Positions 16,657-47,993 of a stretch of DNA of 64,000 nt are shown here, piece after piece. Made by a program: the position numbers and the translations under genes. The first letter of the stretch is position 1; every line of letters starts with the position of its first letter. The DNA comes from Alphaproteobacteria bacterium (lineage in GTDB: Bacteria > Pseudomonadota > Alphaproteobacteria > Methylaequorales > Methylaequoraceae), in assembly GCA_019650635.1 (NCBI GenBank), contig BOXE01000006.1:1176-65175 (forward strand), in the 5' to 3' direction. The notes beneath the pieces are model-generated. The model had not been told where the DNA came from. It searched no databases and saw only the letters and a list, made by a program, of their open reading frames with translations.

Positions 16657-17183
16657 TGTTTAAATTTTTAAGATATTTTATACAAACTTGCTTATTTTTT
16701 ATTTTTACTAATACTATGGCAACAGAGAGTCCAGTGCTTCACATGGTTTTAGAGAAAGGGATTGTAAAAATTAAGACTTTTTCAGAAAAAGCCCCAAATA
16801 CAGTTAAAAGGATAATAGAATTGTCGGAATCTGGATTTTACGATGGTTTGACTTTCCATAGAGTCATATCTGGTTTTATGGCTCAAGGAGGAGATCCAAA
16901 TGGTGACGGAACTGGTGGAAGTGGTAAAAATATTAAAGCTGAATTTAATGATATTAAACATGAACGGGGTATTGTATCGATGGCAAGAGCAAATGACCCA
17001 GATTCAGCTGACAGTCAATTTTTTATTTGTTATGACAGTCATCCATTTTTGGATGGCAAATACACAGTTTGGGGTAAAGTTATTGAAGGGATGAACTTAA
17101 TTGATAGAATTCCAGAGGGAAAAGGACAAAATGGACAAGTTCTCAGAAACCCTACCAAAATAATTACAATAAGATTAAAATAA
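16656..17183 (+). CDS. Cyclophilin-type peptidyl-prolyl cis-trans isomerase with an N-terminal signal peptide.
   Basis: Intact 175-aa ORF with ...FHRVISGFMAQGGDPNGDGTGG...GIVSMARANDPDSADSQFFI. Confidence 0.85.
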   Translation: MFKFLRYFIQTCLFFIFTNTMATESPVLHMVLEKGIVKIKTFSEKAPNTVKRIIELSESGFYDGLTFHRVISGFMAQGGDPNGDGTGGSGKNIKAEFNDIKHERGIVSMARANDPDSADSQFFICYDSHPFLDGKYTVWGKVIEGMNLIDRIPEGKGQNGQVLRNPTKIITIRLK

Positions 17184-17236
17184 AATAAATTTTTGTTGTG
17201 AAAATCATATAATTTTACTATATCCTTACTAACAAC

Positions 17237-17312
17237 GCGCCCGTAGCTCAGTTGGTAGAGCACTCCCCTTTTAAGGGAGTTGTCATGAGTTCGAGCCTCA
17301 TCGGGCGTACCA
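17237..17312 (+). tRNA. tRNA-Lys (anticodon UUU).
   Basis: The cloverleaf was read by hand. The acceptor pairs GCGCCCG with CGGGCGU, the D arm is GCTCAGTTGGTAGAGC, the anticodon arm is CTCCC-cTTTTaa-GGGAG, the T arm is ATGAG-TTCGAGC-CTCAT, and the 3' CCA is encoded. Confidence 0.9.
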
Positions 17313-17329
17313 AAAGACTTGAGTGCTAA

Positions 17330-17948
17330 ATGTGGGCTAGATTAAAAACTATTTTTACTGGAATCCTAGTAACTGCACCGTTGTATTACTTTTGGATCGT
17401 AATCTCACTTATTAACTTATTTGATAGGCTTATCACACCTGTCATACCATATTATTTAAATCCTAATTTTTATCTACCAAGAGATGTTCCAGGATTAGGT
17501 CTCATAGTACTTATTTTATTCATGGTTGTTATTGGTTCTTTGACAGCCAATTTCTTCGGTTCATGGCTTCTTAAGAAGACTGATTTGATAATACAAAGAA
17601 TTCCATTGATTAAAGTTTTTTATAAAACAATAAAACAAATTTTGGAAACGATTCTCAAAACAAATTCTGACGCCTTCAGAGGAAGCAGTTTTAGTTGAAT
17701 ATCCTAGAAAAGGAGTGTGGGTTATAGGTTTTACAACTGGCGATGTTGAAGGTGAGATTAAAACAAAATTGAAAAAAAAACTTACTAATGTTTTTATCCC
17801 AACAACACCCAATCCAACATCCGGTTTTCTTTTAATGGTTCCTAATACCGAATTAAAAAAATTAAATGTTAGTGTTGATGACGCAATAAAAACAATTGTA
17901 TCAGCAGGTATAATTAAATTAGAAACTAAACGGAATAAAAATTCTTAA
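17330..17948 (+). CDS. DUF502 family membrane protein, with one frameshift as assembled.
   Basis: The fragments 17330-17698 (…RIPLIKVFYKTIKQILETIL) and 17715-17948 (preceded by ..VEYPRKGVWVIGFTTGD) together match the DUF502 pattern. Confidence 0.7.
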
Positions 17949-19992
17949 AATTTTTCTCTTGATAAAAAATTTTCTGAAGAAACTCTATTTTATCTATGTT
18001 TTCTCTATAATTTTTTATTAAATATTCTGAGTTTTCTCTAACAGAATTAAGTAGTGAGTGATCTTCATGAGGTCTAAAAAATTTCCATGATGGAAACCCA
18101 GTTTGGTTTGTCCCAAAAAAATCACCAGCTCCTCTTAAATAAAGATCCTTTTCAGCGATTTCAAAGCCATCACTGCTTTTTTTTAAAATCAAAAGTCTTT
18201 GTTTTGATAACTCTGATAAATTTTGATTATAAATTAAAACACAATTTGATTGAAGATTACCTCTAGTTACTCTTCCTCTAAGTTGATGAATTTGTGCAAG
18301 TCCAAATCTTTCAACATTTTCTATTATCATTAATGTTGCATTAGGAATATTTATTCCAACTTCAATAACGGTTGTAGATACAAGAATCATAATTTTTTGA
18401 TCTTTAAAGTCCTGCATTACTCTCTCAGCATCTTCTTTATTCACTTTGCCGTGAATAAAACCAACTTTGTTTTTAAATCTTTTCCTTAGGTATTCATATC
18501 TTGTAATTAATGTTTGTTCTTCAGAATCTAATGTTCCTATTGTGGGTAAAATCCAAAATATTTGTTCATTCTTAATAAGTTTTCTTTCAATACCCTCTAT
18601 TAGTGTTTCAATCTGATTTTTATTTATTAAAGATGTAATTACTTCTTTTCTTCCCTGGGGTTTAGACTTAATATTCGAGATAGATATTTCACCATACATT
18701 ACAAAAGAAAGACTTCTCGGAATTGGTGTTGCAGACATTATTAAAGTATGACATCCAGCTGACTTTTCTAAAAGATTAATTCTTTGTCTAACACCAAACT
18801 TGTGTTGTTCATCTATGACGATAAGACCTAATTTATAGAACTCAATAGAGGAATTGTAAACGCTATGAGTTCCTATTAAAATATCGATTTTTTTCTTTTT
18901 AAACGAGCGTAAATATCTTTTTTATTTTTGGTTTTACCAGTTAGTATTTCAGTTTTAATATTAAATGGAGAAAGTAGTTTGTTGAAATAATCAAAATGCT
19001 GATTTGCTAATATTTCTGTTGGAGCCATTAAGACTACTTGAAACCCACTTTTAATAACATCGGCAATAATTAAAAGTGCAACTATTGTTTTTCCAGAACC
19101 AACATCACCCTGTATAAGTCTATACATTTGTTTTTTTAATGATAAGTCATATTTTATATCTTGCAAAGTTGTTAATTGATCTTTAGTAAGCTTAAATGAA
19201 AGTCTTCTTTGGATTTCATTTGACAATTCATAATTTAAAATTGGGGGTATATTATTTTTTAAATTAATTTTTTTTTTTAGCTCATAAAAAATTATATAAC
19301 TTGCGAGAAGCTCGTCATATGCAAGTCTTTGACGATTTTCTTTCGAGTAATTTCAATTCACAAAGAGAATTGGGGTTGTGAAGATGTAAAAGAGAATCTT
19401 TAAAAGAGTTCCAATTTTTTTTTCTAAACTTTTTTAGAATCCATTCTTCAGGAAAATTAAAAGATTCAAATATATCTAAATGATTTTTAACAATCTTTCT
19501 GAAAATTTTTTTATTAATTTTTTTTCTTGATAAATCGTATTGCGGTTCAAATTTATCAAAATAAAAGAAATCTTTTTCATTTAAAACTCCTGTTGGATGA
19601 ATAATTTGAAGCTTATTTTTTACATAAACTAATTTACCTGAGATTCTGTACCTTTTTTCAAGTTTAATATAATTTTTGATTTGAAATTCATTCATATTAA
19701 AAAAAATGAGTTCAATTATTTGTTTTTTTTTATTTTCGCATAGAATCTTAAATGGAGCGTTTTTACTGTACTTTTTTTCATATTTAATTATTAACAAGTC
19801 ACATGAGATAATTTTTTCGAAATGATTTGGTTTAATTTCTTCAACTAAAATATTTTCATTAATACTGAGTGGCATATGAGTAAAAAGATCAATAATTCTT
19901 TTTCCGAAATAGCTAAGAATGTTTTTTATTGTTAAGTTTGTTCTTAAAAAATCGAAATTATTAAAAATATTTTTATTTTTCAAATTGTTCAT
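17926..19992 (-). CDS. recG: ATP-dependent DNA helicase RecG, frameshifted as assembled.
   Basis: Three fragments support it. 19315-19992 is the wedge/OB N-terminus. 18876-19226 has FKLTKDQLTTLQDI...RLIQGDVGSGKTIVALL. 17926-18738 has SATPIPRSL...QLRGRVTRG. Confidence 0.85.
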
Positions 19993-20008
19993 TTAAAATG
20001 CTCCAAAA

Positions 20009-20283
20009 CGTTATTATTATGAATACATCTTCTAAAAAAAAAAATTCTTCATAGAGCTAAGTACAGAGGAATTAAAGAATTAGACATTATATTTGAAAAA
20101 TTCGTCAACACTTATAAATATAAATTAAATGATCAAGAATTTAAAGAACTTGAAGAAATTTTAAATCTGCCAGATAATCTTCTTTTGGATATTATTTTAA
20201 AGAAAGAAAAAGTACCTGCCAATTATAACAATCTTGTAATGAAAAAAATTTTTAAAACTTGTAACGACAAATCAAGTGAATAA
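20009..20283 (+). CDS. sdhE: Succinate dehydrogenase assembly factor 2 / SdhE (DUF339), frameshifted near the start in an A-run.
   Basis: The frame ending at TAA 20281-20283 reads ...RAKYRGIKELDIIFEKFVNTYKYKLNDQEFKELEEILNLPDNLLLDIIL. It contains the RG.xELD motif. Confidence 0.65.
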
Positions 20284-20360
20284 AAGCTTTAATAAATTTG
20301 CACTAGATAAATCTTCATTAGAGTTTTTTTTAGCTGCTCAGTGTAATAAATACAAAAAAA

Positions 20361-23300
20361 TTGCATATTTTTCCAGTATTGAATATGACTTTGATGACAT
20401 CAAAAAATAAATTACTTAAAATCAACCCTAAATTGAATGTAATAGAATTTCCAAGTTTTGATTGTTTATTTTTTTCAAATCTTTCACCAACAAATAAAAA
20501 TAAGTCTGATCGAATAAATTGTCTTCATAATTTAGTTTTCTCAGATTTATCAGATAATATAATTATAAGCCCTCTTAAAGCAATAGCAACTAATACAATT
20601 AATATTGAAACCGTAAAGAAATTTCAATTAGTAATAAGAAAATTAAGCTCTTTAACCTACGACAAAATTCTTAATTTTTTAGTTGAAGGTGGATATGAAA
20701 GGGTGGATTTTGTTCATAATAAAGGAGAATTTGCAATTAGAGGAGAAATTATGGATATTTTCTCTCCAATTCATGAACAACCCCTTAGAATTTTATTTGA
20801 CTTTGAAAAAATAGACAAACTTAATTTGTTTTCTACACAAGATCAACTTTCAATAAGTACTGTTAATGATTATTATTTATCCTTATCCTCTGAGTTTCAA
20901 TTCAATTCTGAGAATATAGAATGTTTTAGAAGCTTATTTAGACAACTTAAACTAAAGGATAAAGACGATTATTATAAATCACTTTCTCAGAAAATAGTCT
21001 TACCAGGTTCAGAACAGTTCTTTCCAATCTTAAATAATAATTTTAATTCTTTTTTAGAATATTTAGATGGTTATAAAATCCTTTTGGACTCAAATTTTGA
21101 AAAGGATTTCAAACAAGTAACATCGGATTCATTTGACAATATTGATGAATATAAAGATTTAAAAAAAATCGGTTGTAATTATTTTTATAATTTAAAAGAA
21201 CTAAATTCTAAAATTGAAAATAGATTCCATACTCTTTCATTCAATCAGTTAAATTCAAAAGAAGAAGGAATAAATTATTTTTCATCAAGATATAATTTTA
21301 ATAAAAATAAAATACTAAATCAAAAAAAGTTAATAACTTTAATAAAAAAAAGAGAAATTATAATTTTCTGTTATTCCTCAAATGTAAATAAAAAAAAAAT
21401 TCTAAGTTTTTTAAATTCACAAAATATAAACTATATAGACAAGTTTAAACAAGATTTTTTCGATTTAACTAGAATAAACTTTAACTTTTTAGTCTATAAA
21501 TTCACAATAAATAATAGTTTTGTTTTAAATTTTAATAATACTCATTCACTATATTTTATTGCCGACCAAGAAATTTATGGCAAAACTTCCAAAAAATATA
21601 TTTCTAAATCAATAAAAGAAGAAAATTTGATAGATGATTATTCAAATCTTAAAATTGGAGATTATATAGTCCATAATGACCATGGTATTGGAAAATATAA
21701 TGGACTTATATCCAGAACGTTTAATAACGTTGTTCAAGAGTTTTTAGAGTTGCTATATCATGGAAATGACAAATTGTTAATTCCAGTAGAAAACCTAGAT
21801 CAGATTTCAAAATATGGTCAAAGTGAAATTAAGGTGAGCTTAGATAAGTTAGGTATACAGAGTTGGCAGCAAAGAAGGGCTATTGTAAAGAATCGAATAA
21901 AAGACATTGCAAAGAATTTATTAAAAACTGCAGCTAAGAGAAAATTAGAAAAAGGTGATGTTCTCATTCCTAAATCTTTTGAGTATGAGAAATTCTCATC
22001 AGAATTTGAATTTACGGAAACATCAGATCAGTTAAAATCAATACAGCAAATTGAAAATGATTTGGCCTCAGGTACACCTATGGATCGTTTAATCTGCGGA
22101 GATGTGGGTTTTGGCAAAACAGAAATAGCAATGAGAGCTTCATTTATTTCTGTTTCAGCTGGATTCCAAGTTGCATTGATATGCCCTAAATTACTTTTAG
22201 TGAATCAACACATAAAAAATTTTAAAAAAAGATTTAAAAATTTTGATTATGTAATAAAAAAAATTTCAAGAATAGAATCAGATACTGAAAAAAAAAATCT
22301 TAAAGAAGAAATTAAAAACGGAAATATTGATATTCTAATTGGAACTCATGCAATATTATCAAGCGAACTCGTCTTTAAAAAGTTAGGTTTAATAATCATT
22401 GATGAGGAGCAGAGTTTTGGTGTTGAACAAAAAGAAATACTAAAAAAATTTAAGCCAAATTGTCATATCCTGACTTTAACTGCAACACCAATTCCAAGAA
22501 CATTACAATCGTCTATATTTCAATTAAAAAATATTTCATTAATTAAAACTCCACCTCTTAGTAGATTGAATATAAAAACCTATCTTATGTTGAAGGAAAA
22601 AAAACAATTAAAAAAAATTATTCAAAAAGAAATTAATCGTGATGGACAGGTTTTTTATGTTGCACCGAGAATTTCTGATTTAAATAATATCCAAAAAAAT
22701 CTAAATAATCTCATTCCTAATGAAAAAATAGAAGTAATTCATGGTAGATTGTCCAATAAAAATATTGAAGAATCTTATAATAGATTCTTTTTAAAAAAGT
22801 CAAAAATATTGGTCTCAACAGCTATGATCGAATCTGGATTAGATATTTCTAATGTAAATACAATAATAATTGAAAAGCCACAATTATTTGGTCTTTCTCA
22901 GTTATATCAGTTAAGAGGACGAGTAGGCAGATCAAGTAGACAAGCATATGCATATTTGCTTCTTGATGATTTTAAAAATATAAGTGAAAATTCGATTCAA
23001 AAACTTAAAATAATCTCTAAAATTCAAAATCTTGGTGCAGGCTTATCTATTGCTTCTAGTGACCTTGATCTTAGAGGAGGAGGAAATATTGTTGGTTCAG
23101 AACAGTCAGGTCATATTAAAGAAGTAGGTATTGAACTGTATTACAAAATGCTCAAAGAAACTATTGACGAACTTAAAAATATTAAGACAAATGATAGAGA
23201 TTGGTCCCCAGTCATTAAACTTGGATTCGCAATTAGTATTCCAAAAAATTATATTAAAGATTTGGATATGAGATTAAGGTTTTATAGAAAAATATCGAAT

Positions 23301-23645
23301 ATAGTTAATATTGACGAATTAAAAGATATGTTATCCAACTTGAATGATAGGTTCGGAAACATTCCTAAATCTCTCAAAAATTTATTTCATATAATTGAGA
23401 TTAAAATAAAAGCCAAAAAGATGAATATAAAAAAAATTGAGAATACCAATAAAGGTTTTGTACTGGAATTCAAAGATGATAATATGATGAATGTTGAAAA
23501 ACTTATAAAATTAGTTGAAAAAAATGCTAAAATTTTAAAATTGATGCCAGGTTCAAAGTTATTTTTTAAGAATGTTAAAATTAAAGATGAAGAGAAAGTC
23601 ATGAGTTTAAAAAATTTTTTACAAATACTCTCTAAACAAATATGA
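20361..23645 (+). CDS. mfd: Transcription-repair coupling factor Mfd. The true start is probably about 85 nt upstream (GTG near 20275), with a frameshift near 20400.
   Basis: 1094-aa ORF with ...GDYIVHNDHGIGKYNGL... (CarD/TRCF domain), helicase motifs GDVGFGKTEIAMRA, IIDEEQSFG, TLTATPIPRT and QLRGRVGRS, plus a C-terminal TRCF domain. Confidence 0.9.
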   Translation: MHIFPVLNMTLMTSKNKLLKINPKLNVIEFPSFDCLFFSNLSPTNKNKSDRINCLHNLVFSDLSDNIIISPLKAIATNTINIETVKKFQLVIRKLSSLTYDKILNFLVEGGYERVDFVHNKGEFAIRGEIMDIFSPIHEQPLRILFDFEKIDKLNLFSTQDQLSISTVNDYYLSLSSEFQFNSENIECFRSLFRQLKLKDKDDYYKSLSQKIVLPGSEQFFPILNNNFNSFLEYLDGYKILLDSNFEKDFKQVTSDSFDNIDEYKDLKKIGCNYFYNLKELNSKIENRFHTLSFNQLNSKEEGINYFSSRYNFNKNKILNQKKLITLIKKREIIIFCYSSNVNKKKILSFLNSQNINYIDKFKQDFFDLTRINFNFLVYKFTINNSFVLNFNNTHSLYFIADQEIYGKTSKKYISKSIKEENLIDDYSNLKIGDYIVHNDHGIGKYNGLISRTFNNVVQEFLELLYHGNDKLLIPVENLDQISKYGQSEIKVSLDKLGIQSWQQRRAIVKNRIKDIAKNLLKTAAKRKLEKGDVLIPKSFEYEKFSSEFEFTETSDQLKSIQQIENDLASGTPMDRLICGDVGFGKTEIAMRASFISVSAGFQVALICPKLLLVNQHIKNFKKRFKNFDYVIKKISRIESDTEKKNLKEEIKNGNIDILIGTHAILSSELVFKKLGLIIIDEEQSFGVEQKEILKKFKPNCHILTLTATPIPRTLQSSIFQLKNISLIKTPPLSRLNIKTYLMLKEKKQLKKIIQKEINRDGQVFYVAPRISDLNNIQKNLNNLIPNEKIEVIHGRLSNKNIEESYNRFFLKKSKILVSTAMIESGLDISNVNTIIIEKPQLFGLSQLYQLRGRVGRSSRQAYAYLLLDDFKNISENSIQKLKIISKIQNLGAGLSIASSDLDLRGGGNIVGSEQSGHIKEVGIELYYKMLKETIDELKNIKTNDRDWSPVIKLGFAISIPKNYIKDLDMRLRFYRKISNIVNIDELKDMLSNLNDRFGNIPKSLKNLFHIIEIKIKAKKMNIKKIENTNKGFVLEFKDDNMMNVEKLIKLVEKNAKILKLMPGSKLFFKNVKIKDEEKVMSLKNFLQILSKQI

Positions 23646-24823
23646 ATACTTCAAAGAAACAGATTAATTTCAATTTGAACGATTTTCTTCCTTTTATTGA
23701 CGGTTTGGATATTGCAATAAACTTTTCTTTAGTTATTTTTTTATCTTCTTTTCTTTTAGAGTCATTAGATACAAGAATAGGTATCGTTATCTTATGTTTT
23801 GTTACTTCATTATCTTTTATTTCCAGAATATTTGACTTAAAAATTTCAAAGTTATTAGAAAAATTAAAAATGAATAAAATAAACCTATTCTTAATTTTAT
23901 GCTTTCTCTACTTTATACCTGTTATAATTCAAAAGGAATTTCCAATTCTTTTATCAATTGGAATTTTCATAATTTTTCGGGTTTTTACAGGTATTATAAT
24001 TTCATTAAGTTATAGAAATGTTTTAATAAACGAACAAAAATTTGGTACGAATGTTTTACAGTTGAAATATTGGATATTAATTTTTCTTGGTATTGCCTGC
24101 GGTTCACTATTTTATAATTTAATGAATGAAATTTATTCAAATGATTTTATTAATAACGGTGGTTGGAAAATTCTTTATTTAGTAGTTATATCCTTACTTT
24201 TAGTAATATTTGTATTTTCCAAATTTTATTTAAAAAAGAATCTAATTATAATTCTAGATTCCAATAATATAAAAAATAATTCTTTTGTTACTAACTATAT
24301 AAATAGTTTTATTTTATTTATACCTATTTTATGTTTTTTACTTTTTTCTTTTTCTAATTGGCTACCAAAATTCAGTAACCCTGATAATTTATACTTTTTG
24401 AGTTATGGATTTTTATATTTATTTTTAACTAACTTAATTTTGTTTTTTATAACACCGCTTGCTAATATTGTAGGTAGAAGAAAATCTGTAATATTTTTCA
24501 ATTTATCGGTTCTAATAATTTCCTCAATTTGCTCATTTGTAGATCATTCATCAAGTTATAGTATCGATTTTCTTAAATTTTTTTTATCTTTGGTGTCAAG
24601 TTTCACAATTTGTTGCTTTATCCTTCAACAGCAAATAAACAGAACAACAGAAAATTTATGTATTTCAAGCTTAAACCTTTCTTTTCTTACCGCAGCTATA
24701 TTTGTTTCGCCACTTGTTTTTATTGCAGTTAATTTTTCAATAAATTATTCTGTTATTTACATATTTTTATCAATAGTTTATTTTATAAATTATACAAGAA
24801 TCGTTTTAAAAAAAGATGGATAA
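23642..24823 (+). CDS. Polytopic inner-membrane protein, possibly an MFS-type transporter.
   Basis: 393-aa ORF with about 10-12 hydrophobic segments. I recognised no specific family motif. Confidence 0.4.
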   Translation: MNTSKKQINFNLNDFLPFIDGLDIAINFSLVIFLSSFLLESLDTRIGIVILCFVTSLSFISRIFDLKISKLLEKLKMNKINLFLILCFLYFIPVIIQKEFPILLSIGIFIIFRVFTGIIISLSYRNVLINEQKFGTNVLQLKYWILIFLGIACGSLFYNLMNEIYSNDFINNGGWKILYLVVISLLLVIFVFSKFYLKKNLIIILDSNNIKNNSFVTNYINSFILFIPILCFLLFSFSNWLPKFSNPDNLYFLSYGFLYLFLTNLILFFITPLANIVGRRKSVIFFNLSVLIISSICSFVDHSSSYSIDFLKFFLSLVSSFTICCFILQQQINRTTENLCISSLNLSFLTAAIFVSPLVFIAVNFSINYSVIYIFLSIVYFINYTRIVLKKDG

Positions 24824-25136
24824 AATTTCAGCTTCACACATTTTGATCATGCATAAAGATTCTAAAGATTCTAGATCAAGTTTATCTAAAGATGAAGCTA
24901 TGAAACTTATCAATGAAATACATAATGAACTGACTAATAATAAATCCTCTTTCAAAGATCTTGCTAGTAAACATTCTGAATGCTCCTCATCTGCATATGG
25001 AGGAAGTTTAGGAGAATTTGGTAAAGGAATGATGGTAAAGCCCTTTGAGGAAAGTGCCTTTTCTCTAAAAGTTGGTGAAATTTGTGAACCAATTGAAACT
25101 GAGTTTGGTTTTCATATAATTAAAAGAGATAAATAA
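24816..25136 (+). CDS. Parvulin-type (PpiC) peptidyl-prolyl isomerase.
   Basis: It contains SASHILIMHKDS...CSSSAYGGSLGEFGKGMMVKPFEESAFSLKVGEICEPIETEFGFHIIKR. Confidence 0.8.
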   Translation: MDKISASHILIMHKDSKDSRSSLSKDEAMKLINEIHNELTNNKSSFKDLASKHSECSSSAYGGSLGEFGKGMMVKPFEESAFSLKVGEICEPIETEFGFHIIKRDK

Positions 25137-25803
25137 ATTCCGTGCGGTAATAAGAAACCTTATTCTTTTAAATCTTCTGACCAAGCAGCTGCCAATAGCT
25201 GTCTGATTCTTACAATATTTTTCATTATCTTGAGTTTTAATATTTATATCTTTTTTTTTTTTTTTTTACGCTGGCGTTTAACCACAACATTTCAATTGAT
25301 TCAATTAAATTTTTTTTTTCAATTGAGGATAAATTATTGAAATTTTTAATAGACTCTTTCAAATTACTTACTTCGTCGTCATGCGCCATATTCAGTTGCC
25401 ATTTCGAATAAAAATCTTGTTTCTTTTTGATAAACTTCTTTATTAATAAATCCTTTTACGTAAAGTTCTCTGACATTTTCCATTTCATTTTTTATTGCTA
25501 TCAATTTTTCTTCTGTATTTGTCATATTTTGATAATAATATAGTATTATATTTAGTAAACATTATAAAATGAAAAATAGACTTTCAAAATCTATTCAAAG
25601 ATTAAAAAAAGAGAAAAAAATTTCTGATAAAGAGAAATCTGATTCAAAAGTTTTAACAGCGTATAATGTAAAAATATTTAGAAATTTGTCCGAGAAATAT
25701 GACTTATCATTAACATTAAATAATGAAAAAATTAATAAAGAAAATGATAAGGAACAAAATTTAAGTTTGGGTGCACAGATGACTCTAGAAAGAATAAAAA
25801 AAG

Positions 25804-26286
25804 GTGAGAATTTTAAGTTATAAAATTCTCTTTTTTTTTATTTTTGGATTTACCGAGCTGCGATCAAACGAGTTCGCACTCATTCATTCAAAAAATTTTT
25901 CTAATTTGTTAGTAAAAATAGCCGTTGATGATAATACAAAGCAAAAAGGTCTTATGAATATAAAACAGTTAAAAACTCATAATGGGATGCTTTTTATTTA
26001 CGATGCACCGCAAATAGTCAAGTTCTGGATGTACAATACTTTCATACCATTAGATATAATATTTATTGACGATAGAAACATTATAAGTTCTATAAAAGAG
26101 GGTGTTCCAATGGAAAAAAATTTAATTTCATCTGAAATTAAAATTTCTGCTGTATTAGAAATACCAAGAGGTTGTGCAAAAAAATTAAAAGTTAAGAAAG
26201 GTCAAACTGTGTCTTGGATAATAAAAAAAACTGCAGAAATTAAAAATATTAGATATTTTCATTGTTTAAATTTAAAAGAAAAATAG
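25804..26286 (+). CDS. DUF192 family protein (secreted).
   Basis: It has a signal-like N-terminus and ...GLMNIKQLKTHNGMLFIYDAPQIVKFWMYNTFIPLDIIFIDDRNII..., which matches the DUF192 pattern. Confidence 0.65.
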   Translation: MRILSYKILFFFIFGFTELRSNEFALIHSKNFSNLLVKIAVDDNTKQKGLMNIKQLKTHNGMLFIYDAPQIVKFWMYNTFIPLDIIFIDDRNIISSIKEGVPMEKNLISSEIKISAVLEIPRGCAKKLKVKKGQTVSWIIKKTAEIKNIRYFHCLNLKEK

Positions 26287-26306
26287 AATAAAATGGGGAG
26301 ATTGTT

Positions 26307-26925
26307 TTGGGAAAATTTATTGAAAAATATAAATTAGAAAATCCTAACTTTAGCTTTGAATTAAATGAACTAATTCAAAAAATTAAGTCTGAGAATAATC
26401 AAGAAACAGAAGATTTATTTTCTACAATTAACTCACTTCGAGAAAAATTAGACCAATCTATTTTTGAAAAAAATAATGCAGTACAAAAAGCTATTTCATT
26501 AAAAAATGATGAAATAAATCAATTAAAATCTTCTGTTAAAGAACTAAGAAATCAAATGGAAAAGCTAAGATTTGAAAAAAGAGAAGCAATTCAAATTCAA
26601 ATTCAGGCTTCAGCAAATGAAATTAAACAACTTAAGTTATCTTGTTCCGCATTAAGAGAAGAGCTTGAAAATTTAAAATTCGAAAAAACAAGAAGCTGTT
26701 CAAAATGCTATAAAGAAATCTTCACTTGAAATTAACGAATTAAAAGATGCAACATCTGCTTTAAGAGATGAATTAGTTGAATCAAAATTTTCAAAAAAAC
26801 AAGAAATTCAAAAAGCGGTTTTAAATTCCAGTGATGAAATTAAACAACTTAAAAATTCAACACAGTCACTTAGAGATGAATTAGAAAAAGTAATTAAAAA
26901 TTATCAAAAAAAAATCCAAAAATAA
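26307..26925 (+). CDS. Coiled-coil protein with about 4 tandem units of roughly 30-35 aa, with one frameshift near 26700-26730.
   Basis: The repeating units are NDEINQLKSSVKELRNQMEKLRFEKREAIQ, ANEIKQLKLSCSALREELENLKFEK, EINELKDATSALRDELVESKFSKKQEIQ and SDEIKQLKNSTQSLRDELEKV. Confidence 0.55.
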
Positions 26926-26939
26926 CAATAAATTAAAAG

Positions 26940-29243
26940 ATGAAAAATAGTAATGAAAATATAGTCCAAACCCTGGAGAAGCTTAGAAGAACTGAGCTTC
27001 TACTTCAAATATCAAGAAAAATTGCTGGACTTAAATCTTTAGAGGAGATTCTATGGACACTTATAGAATTCGTTACTAATGAGTTAGATGCAGATAGAGG
27101 AACATTATTTTTAAATGATAACGAAACAAATGAACTTTATTCAAGAGTTGCCAAGGGATTTGACTCGCGAAATAAAATTTTAAATAACGTTGGAATAGCA
27201 GGTGCAATTTTTCAAAACAAGTCTGGGGAAGTCATTCATGACGTTTATGCGACTCCCGTTTTAACAAAGAAGTTGATCAGGAAACAGGTTATAAGACAAA
27301 AAATATGATTTGTTGTCCAGTTAAAACTGTTGACGGACTGACAATAGGCGTTATTCAAGTTTTAAATAAAAAAAAAGGTAGATTTACAAAAGATAATCTT
27401 TTCTTTACAGAGTCAATTGCCACCCAAGCTGCTGTATCAATTCAAAATGCACAAAATACAGAACATTTTGAAAAAAAAAGAGCTAAAGAAATGGAGTTTA
27501 TAAGTATAGTTTCTGATGTAACAGCTGAAATCGATTTAGGAGCTTTACTTCAAAGAGTGATGGAAGAGGCAACACGAATGCTCAATGCTGACAGGGCTAC
27601 ATTATTTTTAAATGATGAAAAAACCAATGAATTATTTTCAAGGGTAGCTATGGGGGAAGGCATTGGTGAAATAAGACTTCCTAACACTGCTGGAATTGCA
27701 GGTTCGGTTTTTACTTCTGGTAAATCAATGAATATTCCTTACGCCTATGCTGATTTAAGATTTAATCCTTCATTTGATAAGCAGACAGGGTATTTTACTC
27801 GTTCGATTTTATGTGTACCTGTTGTGAATAAAGAAGGTAAGGTAATTGGTTGCACACAAGTTTTAAATAAGAGTGGTGGCAAATTTACAGATGAAGATGA
27901 ATCTAGGTTAAAGGCATTTACTCAACAAGTTGCAATTGCTCTTGAAAATGCCAAGCTTTTTGAAGATGTATCTAAATCTAGAAAGTATAATGAAAGTATG
28001 CTTTCTAGTATGTCTAACGGAGTTATAACAATTAACAGTGAAGAAGAAATTGTTACTTGTAACAAATCTGGATTAAAAATACTCCGAACTAAAGATTCAG
28101 ACATAATAAAAAAACAATCCAAAGATTTTTTTTCCGGAAATAAAAAATGGATATATGAGAAAATTAAGAGTGTTGGTGAATCAAAAGAACCAGAAATTAT
28201 TGTTGACGCTGAAATAGAGGTTTTCGATTATGAAACAGAAAAAGAGGAAAAAATATCAGTAAATTTGACAATACTCCCACTAATTAATGAAGATAGTGAC
28301 GGTAGAACGGATCAATCAGATAATTTTCTAGGTACTTTATTAATGTTTGAGGACATTTCTTCAGAAAAAAGAATGAAATCAACAATGTCTAGATATATGG
28401 ACCCTGGAATAGCAGATCAATTATTAGAGGATGGATCTGACATCATGGGTGGGCTAGAAACAACCGCTACTTTGTTGTTTTCTGATTTAAGAAGTTTTAC
28501 TACCATAACAGAGTCGTTGGGTGCTCAGGGTACTGTAAAATTATTGAATGAATATTTTGAAATAATGGTTGAATGCATATCAGAGCAGGGGGGGATGTTA
28601 GACAAATTTATTGGAGATGCAATAATGGCTGCATTTGGTCTTCCTATATCACATGAGGATGATGAAGATAGGGGTGTTAAAGCTGGTATCAATATGATCA
28701 AAAGATTATGGGAGTGGAACGAGCAAAGAGAAAAAGATGGAAAAGCCACCTGTTGATATGGGATTAGGATTAAATACGGACAAAATTGTGGCAGGAAATA
28801 TTGGATCACAAAAAAGAATGGATTACACGATGATTGGTGACGGTGTGAATTTAGCAGCACGTTTAGAAAGTGCATGCAAACAATATAGTGCAAGAATATT
28901 AATCAGTGACTATACATTTAAAAAACTAAAAGGTACTTATCGCATTAGGTATATAGATGATGTAGTTGTTAAAGGAAAAAACGAACCTATTGGTGTTCAT
29001 GAAGTTTTAGATTATCACAATGATAAAACTTTTCCGAATTTAATGGATGTGGTCAATCATTTTAATGAAGGTAGGAAACACTATAAAGGTGGAAGTTTTG
29101 AACAAGCTATTTCATCTTTTAATGAATGTCTAAAAGCAAATTCTCAAGATAACTTATCAAAAACATACATTGAGAGATGCAATTTATTAATAGATGAAAA
29201 ACCGACAGATTGGAATGGAGTTTGGGTAATGAAAAGCAAATGA
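26940..29243 (+). CDS. GAF-GAF-PAS class III adenylate cyclase with a TPR-like tail (CyaB1-like architecture). Two single-base frameshifts are present as assembled, near 27250-27300 and near 28740.
   Basis: GAF-A reads ...DADRGTLFLNDNETNELYSRVA...GYKTKNMICCPV...VLNKKKGRFTKDN. GAF-B reads ...NADRATLFLNDEKTNELFSRVA...TGYFTRSILCVPV...VLNKSGGKFTDEDE. A PAS-like segment (MLSSMSNGVITINSEEEIVTCNKSG) follows. The cyclase motifs are LLFSDLRSFTTITE, LDKFIGDAIMAAFG and MDYTMIGDGVNLAARLES. Confidence 0.85.
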
Positions 29244-29962
29244 GGAATTTTCCATTAGACAAAGGTTTGCCAAGTTTAGATTATATAGTTAAAAATTGGC
29301 CTAGAACAAAATGTATTTTAAAAAAATATATTTTGTCAAATCATAAACAACCAGATTTATACTCGATAGCAATAATATGTTTAAAAGAGTTAAAAGTTTT
29401 TAAGTTAAAAGACTATAAATCGATTATTAGAAAATTATCAAAATTGTGTTTAAGAAATACTTGTTTCAATACATATCATGATTCTCATCACTTTAAGTCA
29501 GTTTTGGCAATTTCATGTATATTAGGAAAACAAATAAATTTAAAATATAAAGATAGGCTTTTATTGGTCATAATAGCCCTTACTCACGATATGAATCATC
29601 AGGGAAGGAGAATACTAATGAGTAAGCCCTACTATCAGGAATTAAAGAGTTATGATGGATTAGAAAAAATTTTATTTAAGAAAATCTTTATTTTTAAAGA
29701 ATTGAAGAGGATTAAGAGAATATTTGAGAGTACCTTTTTCCCTGTTAAACCAGAAAATGTAGAAGATGATCTTGAAAAAATAATTTTAGATGCTGATATC
29801 TTATCATCTTTAATGTTTGGTCCTCAGGTTGGAGTGAAACTCGCTGGCAGATTGAAACAAGAAATTAGGTATAATGATGATTCAGAATTACTTTTTTCAA
29901 ATTTTCTTAAACTTTTAGGGGGAAAATGTTTATATCTAGATTATTCAAAAAAATCATGTTAA
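29240..29962 (+). CDS. HD-superfamily protein resembling class I 3',5'-cyclic-nucleotide phosphodiesterase catalytic cores.
   Basis: The ATG at 29240 overlaps the cyclase stop (ATGA). The motifs are ...YHDSHHFKSVL..., then 37 residues later ...ALTHDMNHQG..., then ...IILDADILSS. Compare the PDE patterns YHN..HA.DV, HD..H.G and the metal Asp. Confidence 0.5.
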   Translation: MRNFPLDKGLPSLDYIVKNWPRTKCILKKYILSNHKQPDLYSIAIICLKELKVFKLKDYKSIIRKLSKLCLRNTCFNTYHDSHHFKSVLAISCILGKQINLKYKDRLLLVIIALTHDMNHQGRRILMSKPYYQELKSYDGLEKILFKKIFIFKELKRIKRIFESTFFPVKPENVEDDLEKIILDADILSSLMFGPQVGVKLAGRLKQEIRYNDDSELLFSNFLKLLGGKCLYLDYSKKSC

Positions 29963-30007
29963 TAATAAACTATTATGAAATGTTGTCGTTAAAAGTTATT
30001 CACAGTT

Positions 30008-31348
30008 ATGAAATTGTGGATAAGTAGTAATATGGGAAAATTTGTAATAGGGTGTTTTATTTTTTTGATTGGTGTTGGATCATTTGTATTCGCGCAAGAA
30101 GAAAAAGATGAGGTTATACCTTATAATCTAAAAGCCGCACTTAAGTCAGTTTTGAATAATCATAAAACTATATTGGCAACAAAAAGTGATATAGAGGCTG
30201 CTAAGTTAAGACTAAAACAATCCAGGGGTGGTTATTTTCCTTCGTTAGACGTTACAGCCAATTACGGACATGAAAATATTATAAAATATGGACCAGGCAA
30301 CAACACGCAATTGATGGCAAGGGACGCAACAGCAAAAATAACTCAAACAATTACAGATTTTGGTTTGACTAAATCAACAGTAGAAACTTCAAGATTATCA
30401 TTAAAACAAACACGAGCAACTGAGGCACAAATTAAAAATGACATTTTATTAAGAGCAATTTCAGCATACTTGAGAATTATTCAATCAAGGGAAAGTGTTC
30501 GATACGCAAGACAATCTGTTGCAAACATAAAAAAACAAACTGAATTGGAAGATGCAGCAGTAACTGCAGGAGGTGGACTTACTTCGGATGTTCTCCAAGC
30601 AAAAACTCAATTAGCTGGTGCTCAGGCACGTTTAATTCAGTTTGAAGGCGTATTAGCCACTTCTAGACATGAATTTGAATATGTTTTTAATTCATTTCCA
30701 GATAATTTAAATTCTTTGATCCTCCTTAAATCTGTTTTTGATAAATTACCTAAATCTTTAGAGGAGGCTGAAGAAATAACAATGAAAAATAATCCCTCAC
30801 TGATTGCAGCAAGAATCACAGAGGATATTGGTAAAGAGGCAATAAACACAGCTAAATCTTCTCTTTTTCCAACTGTTAAAGGGATAGTGAGTCATTCAGA
30901 AAAACAAGATTTTGGTGGTGTAGTAGGATTCAAAAGAGAAACCTCTGCAAAGTTAGATTTTGCATATCCATTAAATCTAAGTCTTTCGGAATACGCTGGT
31001 AAAGATGCAGCGGTTGAGTCTTATTTAGCAACATCTACAAGAATAAGAGATCAAGAAGATATGATTAAACAAATGTTAAGAACTACATGGGACGGATTAA
31101 AAACAGCTCAGCAAAATGCTCAATTTCTTACAAATCAGGCAAGAATCTCTGGTGAATTTTTAGAGCTTGCAAGACAAGAAAGACAGGCAGGAAACCGTAC
31201 TTTACTTGACGTTTTAGGGGGTGAAACTGCTCTAATTAATGCTCAAGCAGATGCGATTGCAGCACAAATTGAAGTTCTCATAAATAGTTACACTTTAATG
31301 AGTTTAATGGGGGGACTTTCAATTGAATCAATTGAATTTGTTGAATAA
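30008..31348 (+). CDS. TolC-family outer-membrane efflux/secretion protein (T1SS OMP, locus A).
   Basis: 446-aa ORF with a signal peptide (FIFLIGVGSFVFAQ) and two TolC-type repeat halves (…AAKLRLKQSRGGYFPSLDVTANYG…, …LINAQADAIAAQIEVLINSYTLMSLMG). Confidence 0.85.
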   Translation: MKLWISSNMGKFVIGCFIFLIGVGSFVFAQEEKDEVIPYNLKAALKSVLNNHKTILATKSDIEAAKLRLKQSRGGYFPSLDVTANYGHENIIKYGPGNNTQLMARDATAKITQTITDFGLTKSTVETSRLSLKQTRATEAQIKNDILLRAISAYLRIIQSRESVRYARQSVANIKKQTELEDAAVTAGGGLTSDVLQAKTQLAGAQARLIQFEGVLATSRHEFEYVFNSFPDNLNSLILLKSVFDKLPKSLEEAEEITMKNNPSLIAARITEDIGKEAINTAKSSLFPTVKGIVSHSEKQDFGGVVGFKRETSAKLDFAYPLNLSLSEYAGKDAAVESYLATSTRIRDQEDMIKQMLRTTWDGLKTAQQNAQFLTNQARISGEFLELARQERQAGNRTLLDVLGGETALINAQADAIAAQIEVLINSYTLMSLMGGLSIESIEFVE

Positions 31349-31404
31349 ATTAGGTCTTTTTAACTTTTAAAATAGTAGTATTTCGCCTATAGTTAAAACT
31401 GGAT

Positions 31405-47987: not shown

Positions 47988-47993
47988 TTTTTG

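What the first reader, a model, noticed from the sequence alone, without database searches (positions are those of the whole stretch)
26940..29243. The cyclase copies the Anabaena CyaB1 architecture and carries class IIIb substrate residues
There are two tandem GAF domains with the NKFDE-type signature of cNMP-binding GAFs (VLNKKKGRFTKDN and VLNKSGGKFTDEDE). They are followed by PAS, a class III catalytic domain and a TPR-like tail. This is the domain order of CyaB1, where cAMP binding to GAF-B activates the enzyme in a positive feedback loop. The substrate-defining positions read Lys (DKFIGD) and Thr (MDYTMIGD). That is the Lys/Thr pair of class IIIb adenylate cyclases, several of which respond to bicarbonate or CO2. 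The CHASE2 cyclase in locus B has Lys/Ser (DKYMGD, FDYSVLGD). Such a switch-like cAMP generator is unexpected in a streamlined AT-rich marine alphaproteobacterium.
Basis: partly seen in the sequence, partly recalled or inferred. Interest (0 to 1): 0.65.

Follow-up and report, generated by a model that had tools for sequence, protein, structure and literature searches.

The report
CyaB1-type adenylate cyclase, frame breaks artefactual
The region encodes an ordinary member of a known enzyme type, a GAF-regulated adenylate cyclase that is conserved, intact and transcribed across marine Alphaproteobacteria; its apparent frame breaks are most likely sequencing errors, and it sits between a conserved coiled-coil partner gene and a small, unannotated cAMP-phosphodiesterase-like gene.

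Summary
Window 26940-29243 (+) encodes one cyclase gene read as three ORFs. When joined it gives GAF-GAF-PAS-class III cyclase plus a short helical tail. All six catalytic residues are present, with the Lys/Thr pair of class IIIb, and they are invariant in 78 orthologues.

The frame breaks are not biology. Against a 95%-identical single-cell genome, the gene carries five single-base indels. The surrounding 16 kb carries 27, in recG, mfd and other genes. Metagenome and metatranscriptome contigs at 98% identity or more all show the intact form. dN/dS is 0.03.

Intact 755-790 aa orthologues were confirmed in 358 matched stretches of a one-genome-per-species collection, in loci of 27-65% GC. The gene is therefore a conserved core gene, not an oddity of a streamlined genome.

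Only GAF-B has a complete NKFDE motif. GAF-A reads NKF..N-L. Activation by cAMP or CO2 remains inference.

Three things were found beyond the finding:
- A coiled-coil repeat gene lies directly upstream in 73 of 80 loci.
- A 240-aa gene overlaps the cyclase stop (ATGA). It folds like class I cNMP phosphodiesterases and keeps their metal ligands.
- The window also holds a CHASE2 cyclase and a cNMP-binding HlyD secretion adaptor.

Verdict: new member of a known kind, of modest interest.

The parts
26307..26925 (+). Upstream partner gene. It encodes a ~205-aa protein made of tandem ~33-aa coiled-coil repeats (consensus LRxELExLRFEKxxAVQxAVxxSxDEIxQLK). In the window it is frame-broken by a 1-nt insertion at 26683.
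   Evidence: One search shows the insertion at 26683. Searches show it directly upstream of the cyclase, often overlapping or within 15 nt, in 73 of 80 loci. Six of the seven loci without it have under 300 nt of upstream DNA. There is no Pfam or NCBIfam family above cut-off. RNA contigs carry the intact form, and one spans the junction with the cyclase.
26940..29243 (+). The adenylate cyclase gene. It codes for 767 residues once the frames are joined. Intact orthologues are 768 aa.
27033..27463 (+). GAF-A domain. The equivalents of the cNMP contact residues are kept: R53, T55, D113 and T116 in joined numbering. The NKFDE motif is incomplete (N143 K144 F149, then N153 L154).
27153..27176 (+). 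A compensated frameshift patch inside GAF-A. Three 1-nt deletions (27153, 27157, 27176) replace the invariant QGDLTREIR with KGFDSRNK and remove one codon.
   Evidence: Metagenome contigs carry the inserted bases.
27249..27251 (+). Frame break 1. A 1-nt deletion (TATGCCGA reads TATG-CGA) shifts reading from frame 0 to frame 2.
   Evidence: Every DNA or RNA contig that reaches the site has the extra base or breaks there with it.
27533..27946 (+). GAF-B domain, the likely cNMP sensor. R219, T221, V236 and D280 align with CyaB2 R291, T293, I308 and D356. The NKFDE motif is complete: N310 K311 F316 D320 E321.
   Evidence: Contact residues are from PMC4411481.
27992..28357 (+). PAS domain
   Evidence: Pfam PAS_9 E 7.5e-6 and PAS E 1.4e-4. 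NCBIfam AtoS PAS region E 2.8e-13. Homologues have precomputed PAS hits. The AF2 model shows a PAS-like order of strands and helices at pLDDT 72-87.
28463..28988 (+). Class III cyclase catalytic domain of class IIIb type. Key codons are metal Asp 28484-28486 and 28616-28618, substrate Lys 28604-28606, Thr 28827-28829, transition-state Asn 28848-28850 and Arg 28860-28862, and phosphate Lys 28971-28973.
   Evidence: (alignments to 3R5G, 2W01, 6FHT)
28741..28741 (+). Frame break 2. A 1-nt insertion in an A run (GGAAAGCC reads GGAAAAGCC) shifts reading from frame 2 back to frame 0.
   Evidence: In one search (contigs at least 98% alike) every contig spanning the site in X2 and X7 lacks the extra base; X4 and X8 had none there. 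At the 93% threshold the same holds in X1-X3, while in X7 only 22.7 of 68 depth units are recorded without it. In RNA, all of the X27 depth but only 3.9 of 13.9 units in X29 are recorded without it.
29040..29240 (+). C-terminal helical tail, predicted as three helices and TPR-like. It ends in PxDW[ND]GV[WF]VxxSK.
   Evidence: TPR_2 E 0.03. NCBIfam TPR BatC E 0.0058. Helices 702-718, 721-734 and 739-754 at pLDDT 75-88. The same tail is in the CHASE2 cyclase of this window.
29240..29962 (+). Downstream 240-aa gene whose ATG overlaps the cyclase stop (ATGA). It is a compact class-I-like cyclic nucleotide phosphodiesterase candidate with the pattern YHDSHH...HDMNHQG...QE...LDADIL.
   Evidence: AF2 gives pLDDT 85 and pTM 0.87. 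The top 50 Foldseek PDB hits are all class I PDE catalytic domains. 45 of 60 distant relatives hit Pfam PDEase_I. It is adjacent to the cyclase only in the AT-rich clade.

Best explanation
The region encodes a soluble class IIIb adenylate cyclase of the CyaB1/CyaB2 type: GAF-A, GAF-B, PAS, catalytic domain and a short helical tail.

The gene is functional in nature. The two frame breaks, and a third compensated frameshift patch, most likely come from single-base indel errors that run through the whole window sequence.

Shown here:
- The domain order.
- All six catalytic residues, with Lys/Thr specifying ATP.
- GAF-B has a complete NKFDE motif and the CyaB2 cAMP-contact residues.
- Strong purifying selection.
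- Intact orthologues across Alphaproteobacteria.
- Transcription in seawater.

Inferred, by analogy with CyaB1/CyaB2:
- The enzyme acts as a homodimer.
- cAMP binds the GAF tandem, chiefly GAF-B.
- This raises catalytic activity, so the enzyme reinforces its own signal.
- In this AT-rich clade, the translationally coupled class-I-like phosphodiesterase downstream degrades cAMP and resets the switch.
- The conserved coiled-coil repeat protein upstream is a probable binding partner or scaffold.
- Modulation by CO2 or bicarbonate is possible but unproven.
For: - Architecture and residues: with alignments to 1YKD, 3R5G, 2W01 and 6FHT.
- In P0001 numbering, D517, K557, D561, T631, N638, R642 and K679 are invariant in 78/78 orthologues.
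- GAF-B R220, T222, D281, N311, F317, D321 and E322 are invariant in 78/78 orthologues. K312 is Lys in 76 of 78 and Arg in two.
- The mapping to CyaB2 R291, T293, I308, D356 and N359 is self-consistent (PMC4411481).
- Breaks as errors: the gene has five 1-nt indels. The 16 kb shared with SAG AH-287-P08 has 27, many of them changes in the length of a short base run, hitting DUF502, recG, Sdh5, mfd and the OEP gene.
- No DNA contig at 98% identity or more shows the window's form where one spans or abuts the break sites. At looser thresholds part of the depth at 28741 in X7 and in RNA run X29 is not recorded as the intact form.
- dN/dS against the orthologue is 0.033, with no in-frame stop after indel correction.
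- Over 100 intact homologues of 767-780 aa are listed at 82-97% identity. Relatives were confirmed in 358 matched stretches of a one-genome-per-species collection, in loci of 27-65% GC.
- Module: the ATGA overlap with the PDE-like gene, its fold and active site, and the coiled-coil partner in 73 of 80 loci.
Against: - No biochemical data exist for this family. cAMP binding, activation and substrate choice are all inferred.
- GAF-A lacks the Asp-Glu of NKFDE.
- GAF contact residues do not reliably separate cAMP from cGMP. PDE5 GAF-A, which binds cGMP, also has Arg-x-Ser at the Arg-x-Thr position (alignment; PMC4411481).
- The source reads of the window were not available, so a strain-private pseudogene cannot be formally excluded.
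- Part of the depth at 28741 in runs X7 and X29 is not recorded as the intact form.
- The full-length AF2 model was poor, with pLDDT 57.7 and the catalytic domain below 50.
- The PDE-like gene is below Pfam cut-offs and fails Prosite PS00126 at one position.
Confidence: 0.7

Rival explanations
1. The enzyme is an active adenylate cyclase, but the GAF tandem does not sense cAMP. It could bind another ligand, such as cGMP or a different small molecule. It could also serve only for dimerisation and signal relay from the PAS domain or the coiled-coil partner. In that case there is no self-activating switch.
For: - GAF domains bind many ligands, and NKFDE is only a correlate of cNMP binding (PMC4411481).
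- GAF-A has a degenerate motif.
- T284 replaces CyaB2 N359.
- A conserved PAS domain and a conserved upstream partner offer other inputs.
Against: GAF-B keeps Arg, Thr, Asp and a hydrophobic residue at the CyaB2 cAMP-contact positions and has a full NKFDE motif in 76 of 78 orthologues; the other two have Arg in place of the Lys. The closest solved relatives of these GAFs are all cNMP-binding GAFs from CyaB2, PDE5, PDE2 and PDE10.
Confidence: 0.25
2. The gene is a true pseudogene in the source organism, and the frame breaks are real mutations.
For: The window sequence as given has two frame breaks plus a scrambled 8-residue patch in a conserved GAF-A strand. The source reads could not be examined.
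Against: - Indels of the same kind occur about once per 600 bp across 16 kb, including in recG and mfd.
- Other genes in the window are also split, including the CHASE2 cyclase and an ABC transporter.
- dN/dS is 0.033, and there are no nonsense substitutions.
- No near-identical DNA contig is seen to carry the broken alleles. RNA contigs 93% or more alike carry the intact form at 27249, and at 28741 all of the X27 depth but only part of the X29 depth.
- Five independent indels with no relaxation of substitutions are implausible for a decaying gene.
Confidence: 0.07
3. The enzyme is a guanylate or promiscuous nucleotidyl cyclase rather than an adenylate cyclase.
For: The best-scoring solved catalytic domain is Synechocystis Cya2, known from my own recall as a guanylate cyclase (2W01 and the chimera 6FHT).
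Against: In the 2W01 alignment, Cya2 has Glu and Gly at the two specificity positions, where this protein has Lys and Thr. The Lys/Thr pair matches characterised class IIIb adenylate cyclases (3R5G alignment; PMC2613629). It is invariant in 78/78 orthologues.
Confidence: 0.03
4. The frame changes are programmed translational frameshifts.
For: The two shifts are of opposite sign and restore the frame.
Against: Every orthologue is a single open frame, with different bases at those sites. There is no slippery heptamer at 27250. RNA contigs from seawater carry the unshifted sequence.
Confidence: 0.01

Closest known systems
Anabaena/Nostoc PCC 7120 CyaB1 and CyaB2 (GAF-GAF-PAS class IIIb adenylate cyclases; CyaB2 GAF tandem, PDB 1YKD)
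   Same: - Same domain order.
- The GAF tandem is the best solved match, E 1.2e-43.
- GAF-B keeps the CyaB2 cAMP contacts and a full NKFDE motif.
- The catalytic domain has Lys/Thr and all catalytic residues.
   Different: - This protein is about 90 residues shorter, at 768 aa against roughly 860 aa (the CyaB lengths are from my memory).
- The GAF-A motif is degenerate.
- T284 stands where CyaB2 has N359.
- It comes from Alphaproteobacteria, with its own conserved partners: the upstream coiled-coil gene and, in this clade, the downstream PDE-like gene.
- Orthology was not tested, because full-length CyaB1/CyaB2 could not be retrieved.
- There is no biochemistry for this family.
Pseudomonas aeruginosa CyaB catalytic domain (PDB 3R5G), class IIIb
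   Same: The catalytic domain aligns end to end, E 8.4e-32. The motifs FSD, DKF-GD, RMDYT-IG, VNLA-RLES and VKG are identical.
   Different: 3R5G is the catalytic domain only, 198 residues. The alignment ends at query residue 695, so it shows no GAF, PAS or helical tail.
Synechocystis Cya2 (PDB 2W01) and the phytochrome-cyclase chimera 6FHT
   Same: These are the highest-scoring solved catalytic domains, E 1.7e-34 and 3e-37.
   Different: In 2W01, Cya2 has Glu and Gly at the specificity positions (DEFMGD, KYGVVG), where this protein has Lys and Thr.
cNMP-binding GAF tandems of mammalian PDE2, PDE5 and PDE10
   Same: They share the GAF fold. The D-x-RFN-x3-D-x2-TGY-x-T-x-S-x-LC-x-P segment is very similar, E 1e-25 to 1e-31.
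   Different: In those proteins the effector domain is a phosphodiesterase, and the ligand is cGMP or cAMP depending on the family.
Class I cyclic nucleotide phosphodiesterase catalytic domains, e.g. PDE5 (1UDT), PDE10 and PDE9. This compares with the downstream 240-aa gene.
   Same: - Fold match at probability 1.0, with TM-score 0.52-0.64 normalised to the query.
- The pattern YH[ND]xxH...HDxxHxG...E...AD is invariant.
- Distant relatives reach Pfam PDEase_I.
   Different: - It has 240 residues against about 330 in the solved domains.
- Sequence identity is 12-19%.
- It is below the Pfam cut-off, at 13.1 against 24.8 bits.
- Prosite PS00126 fails at one position, with Ile where Asn or Gln is required.
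- It is bacterial and standalone.
- Activity and substrate are untested.

Membership tests
Class III nucleotidyl cyclase (CHD) | Catalytic domain homology (Pfam PF00211) above the curated cut-off | tested here: met
   81.7 bits against a cut-off of 21.9, E 6.5e-23, residues 509-683
Class III nucleotidyl cyclase (CHD) | Six canonical catalytic residues: two metal Asp, substrate Lys, the substrate Asp/Thr position, and transition-state Asn and Arg | tested here: met
   D517, D561, K557, T631, N638 and R642 in P0001 numbering. Identified by alignment to 3R5G and 2W01 and invariant in 78/78 orthologues. Window codons are listed.
Class IIIb adenylate cyclase | Substrate-binding Asp replaced by Thr (PMC2613629) | tested here: met
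   T631 in MDYTMIGD, 78/78
Class IIIb adenylate cyclase | Stimulation by CO2 or bicarbonate | not testable with these tools
   This needs an enzyme assay. The Thr is not a sufficient predictor, because class IIIa Rv1625c also responds to CO2 (PMC2613629).
CyaB1/CyaB2-type GAF-regulated cyclase | Domain order GAF-A, GAF-B, PAS, CHD | tested here: met
   Pfam and NCBIfam hits in this order. Tandem GAF match to 1YKD. PMC4411481 describes the CyaB2 order.
CyaB1/CyaB2-type GAF-regulated cyclase | NKFDE motif in both GAF domains | tested here: not met
   GAF-B is complete: N311 K312 F317 D321 E322. GAF-A has N144 K145 F150, then D or N at 154 and Leu at the Glu position in 73 of 78. The window clade has N-L.
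CyaB1/CyaB2-type GAF-regulated cyclase | cAMP-contact residues of CyaB2 GAF-B (R291, T293, I308, D356, N359) | tested here: met
   R220, T222, V237 and D281 are conserved. N359 is replaced by T284; it makes only a water-mediated contact (PMC4411481).
CyaB1/CyaB2-type GAF-regulated cyclase | cAMP binding to the GAF tandem activates the enzyme (positive feedback) | not testable with these tools
   This needs binding and activity assays.
CyaB1/CyaB2-type GAF-regulated cyclase | Orthology or shared C-terminal tail with CyaB1 | not tested
   Full-length CyaB1/CyaB2 could not be obtained. One search returned fragments only, and the Kanacher 2002 paper is not held. The tail is shared with the CHASE2 cyclase of this window.
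Pseudogene | Disrupting mutations that are real, specific to the gene and accompanied by relaxed constraint | tested here: not met
   Indels are window-wide. They are not seen in near-identical environmental DNA contigs, although part of the depth at 28741 in two runs (X7, and RNA run X29) is not recorded as the intact form. dN/dS is 0.033. The source reads were not examined.
Class I cNMP phosphodiesterase (downstream 240-aa gene) | Pfam PDEase_I above cut-off, or Prosite PS00126 H-D-[LIVMFY]-x-H-x-[AG]-x(2)-[NQ]-x-[LIVMFY] | tested here: not met
   PDEase_I scores 13.1 bits against a cut-off of 24.8, E 0.078. HDMNHQGRRILM fails the pattern at the [NQ] position, which is Ile (pattern from PMC5617230).
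Class I cNMP phosphodiesterase (downstream 240-aa gene) | PDE catalytic fold and the metal-binding His/Asp set | tested here: met
   - The top 50 Foldseek PDB hits are all class I PDE domains, probability 1.0, from a model with pLDDT 85.
- H84, H116, D117 and D186 are invariant, and H80 is nearly so.
- The wider family keeps H85, H89, H121, D122 and D194.
- 45 of 60 distant relatives hit PDEase_I, best E 1.7e-10.

The most novel reading that the evidence does not exclude
The cyclase is the centre of an undescribed, self-contained cAMP module in abundant AT-rich marine Alphaproteobacteria. A conserved repeat coiled-coil protein docks on or regulates the GAF-GAF-PAS cyclase. This pairing is conserved across the whole family, in loci from 27 to 65% GC. 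In this clade, a miniature bacterial class-I-type phosphodiesterase is translationally coupled to the cyclase as the reset arm. The output includes cAMP control of type I secretion, through the cNMP-binding HlyD adaptor 17 kb away in the same window.
Probability: 0.25. Interest if true: 0.6.

Novelty: new member of a known kind. Interest (0 to 1): 0.33.

Why it matters
The cyclase itself adds little. It is a well-conserved alphaproteobacterial relative of a cyanobacterial enzyme type characterised in 2002.

The practical lesson concerns the assembly. This window carries about one single-base indel per 600 bp, so apparent pseudogenes in it should not be read as biology.

The surroundings are of more interest. 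One 64-kb stretch of a small, AT-rich genome holds two cyclases, a candidate class-I-like phosphodiesterase that current family models miss, and a cyclic-nucleotide-binding secretion adaptor. The coiled-coil partner is conserved next to the cyclase across distantly related Alphaproteobacteria.

If these parts work together, they would show that oligotrophic ocean bacteria keep a complete cAMP make, sense and degrade circuit. They would also give a simple three-gene system in which to test it.

Tried and rejected
- I searched the protein database with the CyaB2 GAF-B segment rebuilt from the 1YKD alignment, hoping to fetch full-length CyaB1 and CyaB2. Only fragments of 252 aa or less came back, so the direct alignment to CyaB1 and the tail comparison were not done.
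- The Kanacher et al. 2002 paper (PMC126120) is not held. Searches for CyaB1 with TPR, and for HIMB59 with adenylate cyclase, gave nothing useful.
- The full-length AF2 model of the orthologue P0001, built on a shallow alignment, was poor (pLDDT 57.7, catalytic domain below 50). I used it only for the secondary structure of the PAS region and the tail, and ran no fold search on it.
- Promoter and terminator scans were uninformative: 38 promoter-like sites against 33 expected.
- I tried to place the organism by looking for the related SAG names in the supplements of a HIMB59 paper. None were listed, so I do not assign the lineage beyond an AT-rich uncultured marine alphaproteobacterium.
- Programmed frameshifting and a guanylate cyclase reading were considered and rejected (see rivals).
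- The sequence-only PDB search for the 240-aa protein found nothing. The fold search was needed.
Full report
**What is in the sequence**

Window 26940-29243 on the + strand holds one gene read as three ORFs: 26940-27308 in frame 0, 27305-28756 in frame 2 and 28737-29243 in frame 0. I located the frame switches by translating all three frames. The first lies at 27249-27251, where HDVYA is followed in another frame by DSRFNKEVDQETGY. The second lies at 28741-28743, where REKDG is followed by KPPVDMGLGLNT.

The joined protein has 767 residues. Pfam finds the following:
- two GAF domains, E 3.9e-36
- a PAS domain (PAS_9 E 7.5e-6, PAS E 1.4e-4), just under the cut-offs
- a class III cyclase domain, 81.7 bits against a cut-off of 21.9
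- a weak TPR_2 hit at 707-736, E 0.03

The best solved relatives are the following:
- the Anabaena CyaB2 GAF tandem 1YKD, E 1.2e-43
- the catalytic domains of Synechocystis Cya2 (2W01, and the chimera 6FHT)
- the catalytic domain of Pseudomonas aeruginosa CyaB (3R5G)

**The frame breaks are not biological**

A protein search returned more than a hundred intact homologues of 767-780 aa at 82-97% identity. The closest, P0001, comes from the single-cell genome AH-287-P08. I aligned that gene's DNA to the window at 95% identity. The window gene has five single-base indels:
- Three deletions at 27153, 27157 and 27176. Together they drop a codon and turn the family-invariant QGDLTREIR into KGFDSRNK.
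- One deletion at 27250, which is break 1.
- One extra A at 28741, which is break 2.

The same comparison over 16.2 kb shows 27 gap openings. Many are changes in the length of a short base run. They fall in DUF502, recG, Sdh5, mfd, the coiled-coil gene, the outer-membrane factor gene and the FecR-domain gene. That is about one per 600 bp, whatever the gene. Other genes in the window are also split, including the CHASE2 cyclase and an ABC transporter.

Marine metagenome contigs at 98% identity or more, many of them identical to the window over hundreds of bases, were laid on the gene.
- At 28741, every contig at that threshold that spans the site in runs X2 and X7 carries the intact form. Runs X4 and X8 had no contig there. 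At the looser 93% threshold, only 22.7 of 68 depth units in X7 are recorded without the extra base.
- At 27249/27250, contigs carry the intact form or break there with the missing C in their loose end.

Seawater metatranscriptome contigs show the intact form at 26683 and 27249 in every contig that reaches those sites. At 28741 all of the depth in X27 is the intact form, but only 3.9 of 13.9 units in X29 are recorded so. After indel correction the gene has no in-frame stop, and dN/dS against the orthologue is 0.033.

Five independent frameshifts with no relaxation of substitutions are not what a decaying gene looks like. I conclude the breaks are assembly or sequencing errors, with about 0.9 confidence. 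The source reads themselves could not be examined.

**Catalytic and regulatory residues**

I extracted 77 orthologues from species-representative genomes, aligned them with P0001 and counted residues at key positions. Numbering below is that of P0001.

The catalytic set is invariant in 78/78:
- metal Asp D517 and D561
- substrate Lys K557
- Thr T631 at the Asp/Thr polymorphic position
- transition-state Asn N638 and Arg R642
- phosphate Lys K679

The roles follow from the alignment to 3R5G and 2W01 and the standard class III scheme. Replacement of the substrate Asp by Thr is the published mark of class IIIb (PMC2613629). In the 2W01 alignment, Cya2 has Glu and Gly where this protein has Lys and Thr. 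This argues for ATP as substrate.

For the GAF domains I mapped the CyaB2 GAF-B cAMP contacts listed in PMC4411481 onto the 1YKD alignment: R291, T293, I308, D356 and N359. Counting from the ADRST motif lands exactly on an Ile, an Asp and an Asn at the stated numbers, so the mapping is sound.

GAF-B of this family has R220, T222, V237, D281 and T284. Its NKFDE motif is complete, with N311, F317, D321 and E322 invariant in 78/78; K312 is Arg in two of the 78.

GAF-A keeps Arg, Thr or Ser, Asp and Thr at the contact positions. Its motif, however, reads N144 K145 F150, then Asp or Asn, then Leu. In the window clade it is N-L. So only GAF-B carries the full signature.

**PAS and tail**

A full-length AlphaFold model of P0001 on a shallow alignment was poor overall (pLDDT 57.7), and I did not use it for fold searching. 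Two regions were modelled with moderate confidence. The PAS region, 361-473, has pLDDT 72-87 and a PAS-like order of strands and helices. The tail, 702-754, has pLDDT 75-88 and forms three helices.

The tail is not peculiar to this architecture. The CHASE2 cyclase of the same window aligns at 35% identity through the catalytic domain and the tail, to the last residue (PxDWxGVxVxxSK).

**Distribution**

A scan of one genome per species matched 398 stretches, of which 358 encode a confirmed relative. The best 80 loci were kept. They come from AT-rich uncultured Alphaproteobacteria SAGs, MAGs labelled Rickettsiales or Pelagibacteraceae, MarineAlpha3, SAR116, Rhodospirillales, Thalassospiraceae and Magnetovibrio. 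Protein identity is 63% or more throughout. Locus GC ranges from 27 to 65%.

The gene is therefore a strongly conserved alphaproteobacterial gene retained through genome streamlining. It is not an unexpected acquisition. Two genomic surveys of the HIMB59/AEGEAN-169 group do not mention cyclases or cAMP. I could not assign the window's lineage more precisely.

**Neighbours**

Upstream, a ~205-aa protein lies at 26307-26925, frame-broken in the window at 26683. It is built of tandem ~33-aa coiled-coil repeats. It sits directly before the cyclase, overlapping it or within about 15 nt in most of the eight loci whose ORFs I read. This holds in 73 of 80 loci, and six of the seven exceptions have no upstream DNA. 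The number of repeats varies, giving proteins of 105-460 aa. It matches no curated family. One RNA contig spans its junction with the cyclase.

Downstream, a 240-aa ORF at 29240-29962 starts with an ATG that overlaps the cyclase stop (ATGA). The evidence on this gene is as follows:
- Its family is small, with 132 clusters. It is adjacent to the cyclase only in the AT-rich clade.
- Pfam gives only HD at E 0.011 and PDEase_I at E 0.078.
- The invariant residues read YH-D-x-HH, HDxxHxGRR, QE and LDADIL.
- An AlphaFold model built on 43 sequences is good, with pLDDT 85 and pTM 0.87.
- The top 50 Foldseek matches in the PDB are all class I cyclic nucleotide phosphodiesterase catalytic domains (PDE5, PDE10, PDE9, RhoPDE, TcrPDEC). 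Probability is 1.0 and TM-score normalised to the query is 0.52-0.64.
- A profile search of 1.84 billion representatives found 195 relatives.
- Of 60 distant relatives, 45 hit Pfam PDEase_I, best E 1.7e-10. They share invariant H, H, HD and D.
- The Prosite class I pattern, taken from PMC5617230, fails at one position.

I read this gene as a compact class-I-like phosphodiesterase. Its activity is untested.

Further along the window lie the following:
- a TolC-like outer-membrane factor
- FecR-domain proteins with Gly/Pro-rich repeats, which explains the 54% GC block
- a CHASE2 cyclase with Lys/Ser
- a cNMP-binding HlyD adaptor
- a HlyB-type ABC exporter

**Mechanism**

Shown: an intact-in-nature, transcribed class IIIb cyclase with a CyaB-type sensor array.

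Inferred by analogy with CyaB1/CyaB2, using the title of Kanacher et al. 2002 as cited in PMC4411481 and the CyaB2 data in that paper:
- The enzyme is a homodimer.
- cAMP binds to the GAF tandem, chiefly GAF-B, and raises activity, giving positive feedback.
- The coupled phosphodiesterase gives the reset.
- The coiled-coil protein and the PAS domain give further inputs.

CO2 or bicarbonate stimulation is possible. The Thr is not diagnostic of it, because class IIIa Rv1625c also responds to CO2 (PMC2613629).

**Verdict**

The cyclase is a new member of a known kind. The frame breaks are artefacts. The more novel material is the conserved coiled-coil partner and the unannotated phosphodiesterase-like gene.

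Noticed in passing
window 29240-29962 (+): A 240-aa gene overlaps the cyclase stop codon (ATGA). It has no curated family hit, but its predicted fold and invariant His/Asp set match class I cyclic nucleotide phosphodiesterases. 45 of 60 distant relatives hit Pfam PDEase_I. It is adjacent to the cyclase only in the AT-rich clade (L002-L022).
   Followed up: yes
window 26307-26925 (+); also just upstream of the cyclase in L002-L081: A coiled-coil protein made of a variable number of ~33-aa repeats (LRxELExLRFEKxxAVQxAVxxSxDEIxQLK) lies directly upstream of the cyclase in 73 of 80 loci, from 27 to 65% GC. It has no known family. This looks like a conserved two-gene unit.
   Followed up: partly
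window 16937-33121 compared with L001: The window carries about one single-base indel per 600 bp relative to a 95%-identical single-cell genome (27 gap openings in 16 kb). These break recG, mfd, DUF502, Sdh5 and others. Several other genes in the window are also split. Apparent pseudogenes in this window are suspect.
   Followed up: yes
window 43896-46266 (-): A CHASE2-domain cyclase is split into two ORFs (45502-46266 and 43896-45359). It has Lys/Ser at the substrate positions. Its catalytic domain and C-terminal tail are 35% identical to those of the GAF cyclase, up to the shared ending DWxGVxVxxSK.
   Followed up: partly
window 46263-50165 (-): A HlyD-family type I secretion adaptor carries an N-terminal cyclic-nucleotide-binding domain (cNMP_binding E 1.2e-19). 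Next to it is a HlyB-type ABC exporter with a C39 peptidase-like domain. Together they are a possible cAMP-controlled secretion system beside the CHASE2 cyclase.
   Followed up: partly
window 30008-37000 (+): A TolC-like outer-membrane factor (30008-31348) is followed by FecR-domain ORFs containing Gly/Pro-rich tandem repeats of 15, 24 and 96 nt. These repeats account for the 54% GC block at 32-34 kb in a 30% GC window. The arrangement is conserved downstream of the cyclase in the AT-rich clade; in L016 the ORF is 1039 aa.
   Followed up: partly
window 26949 to 27354, and 27187 to 28356: Some metagenome contigs join 26949 to 27354, skipping 404 nt, with only 21 letters on the shorter side. Two RNA runs have a contig joining 27187 to 28356 with 17 unplaced letters between. 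These are probably assembly chimeras in A-rich sequence. They remain unexplained.
   Followed up: no
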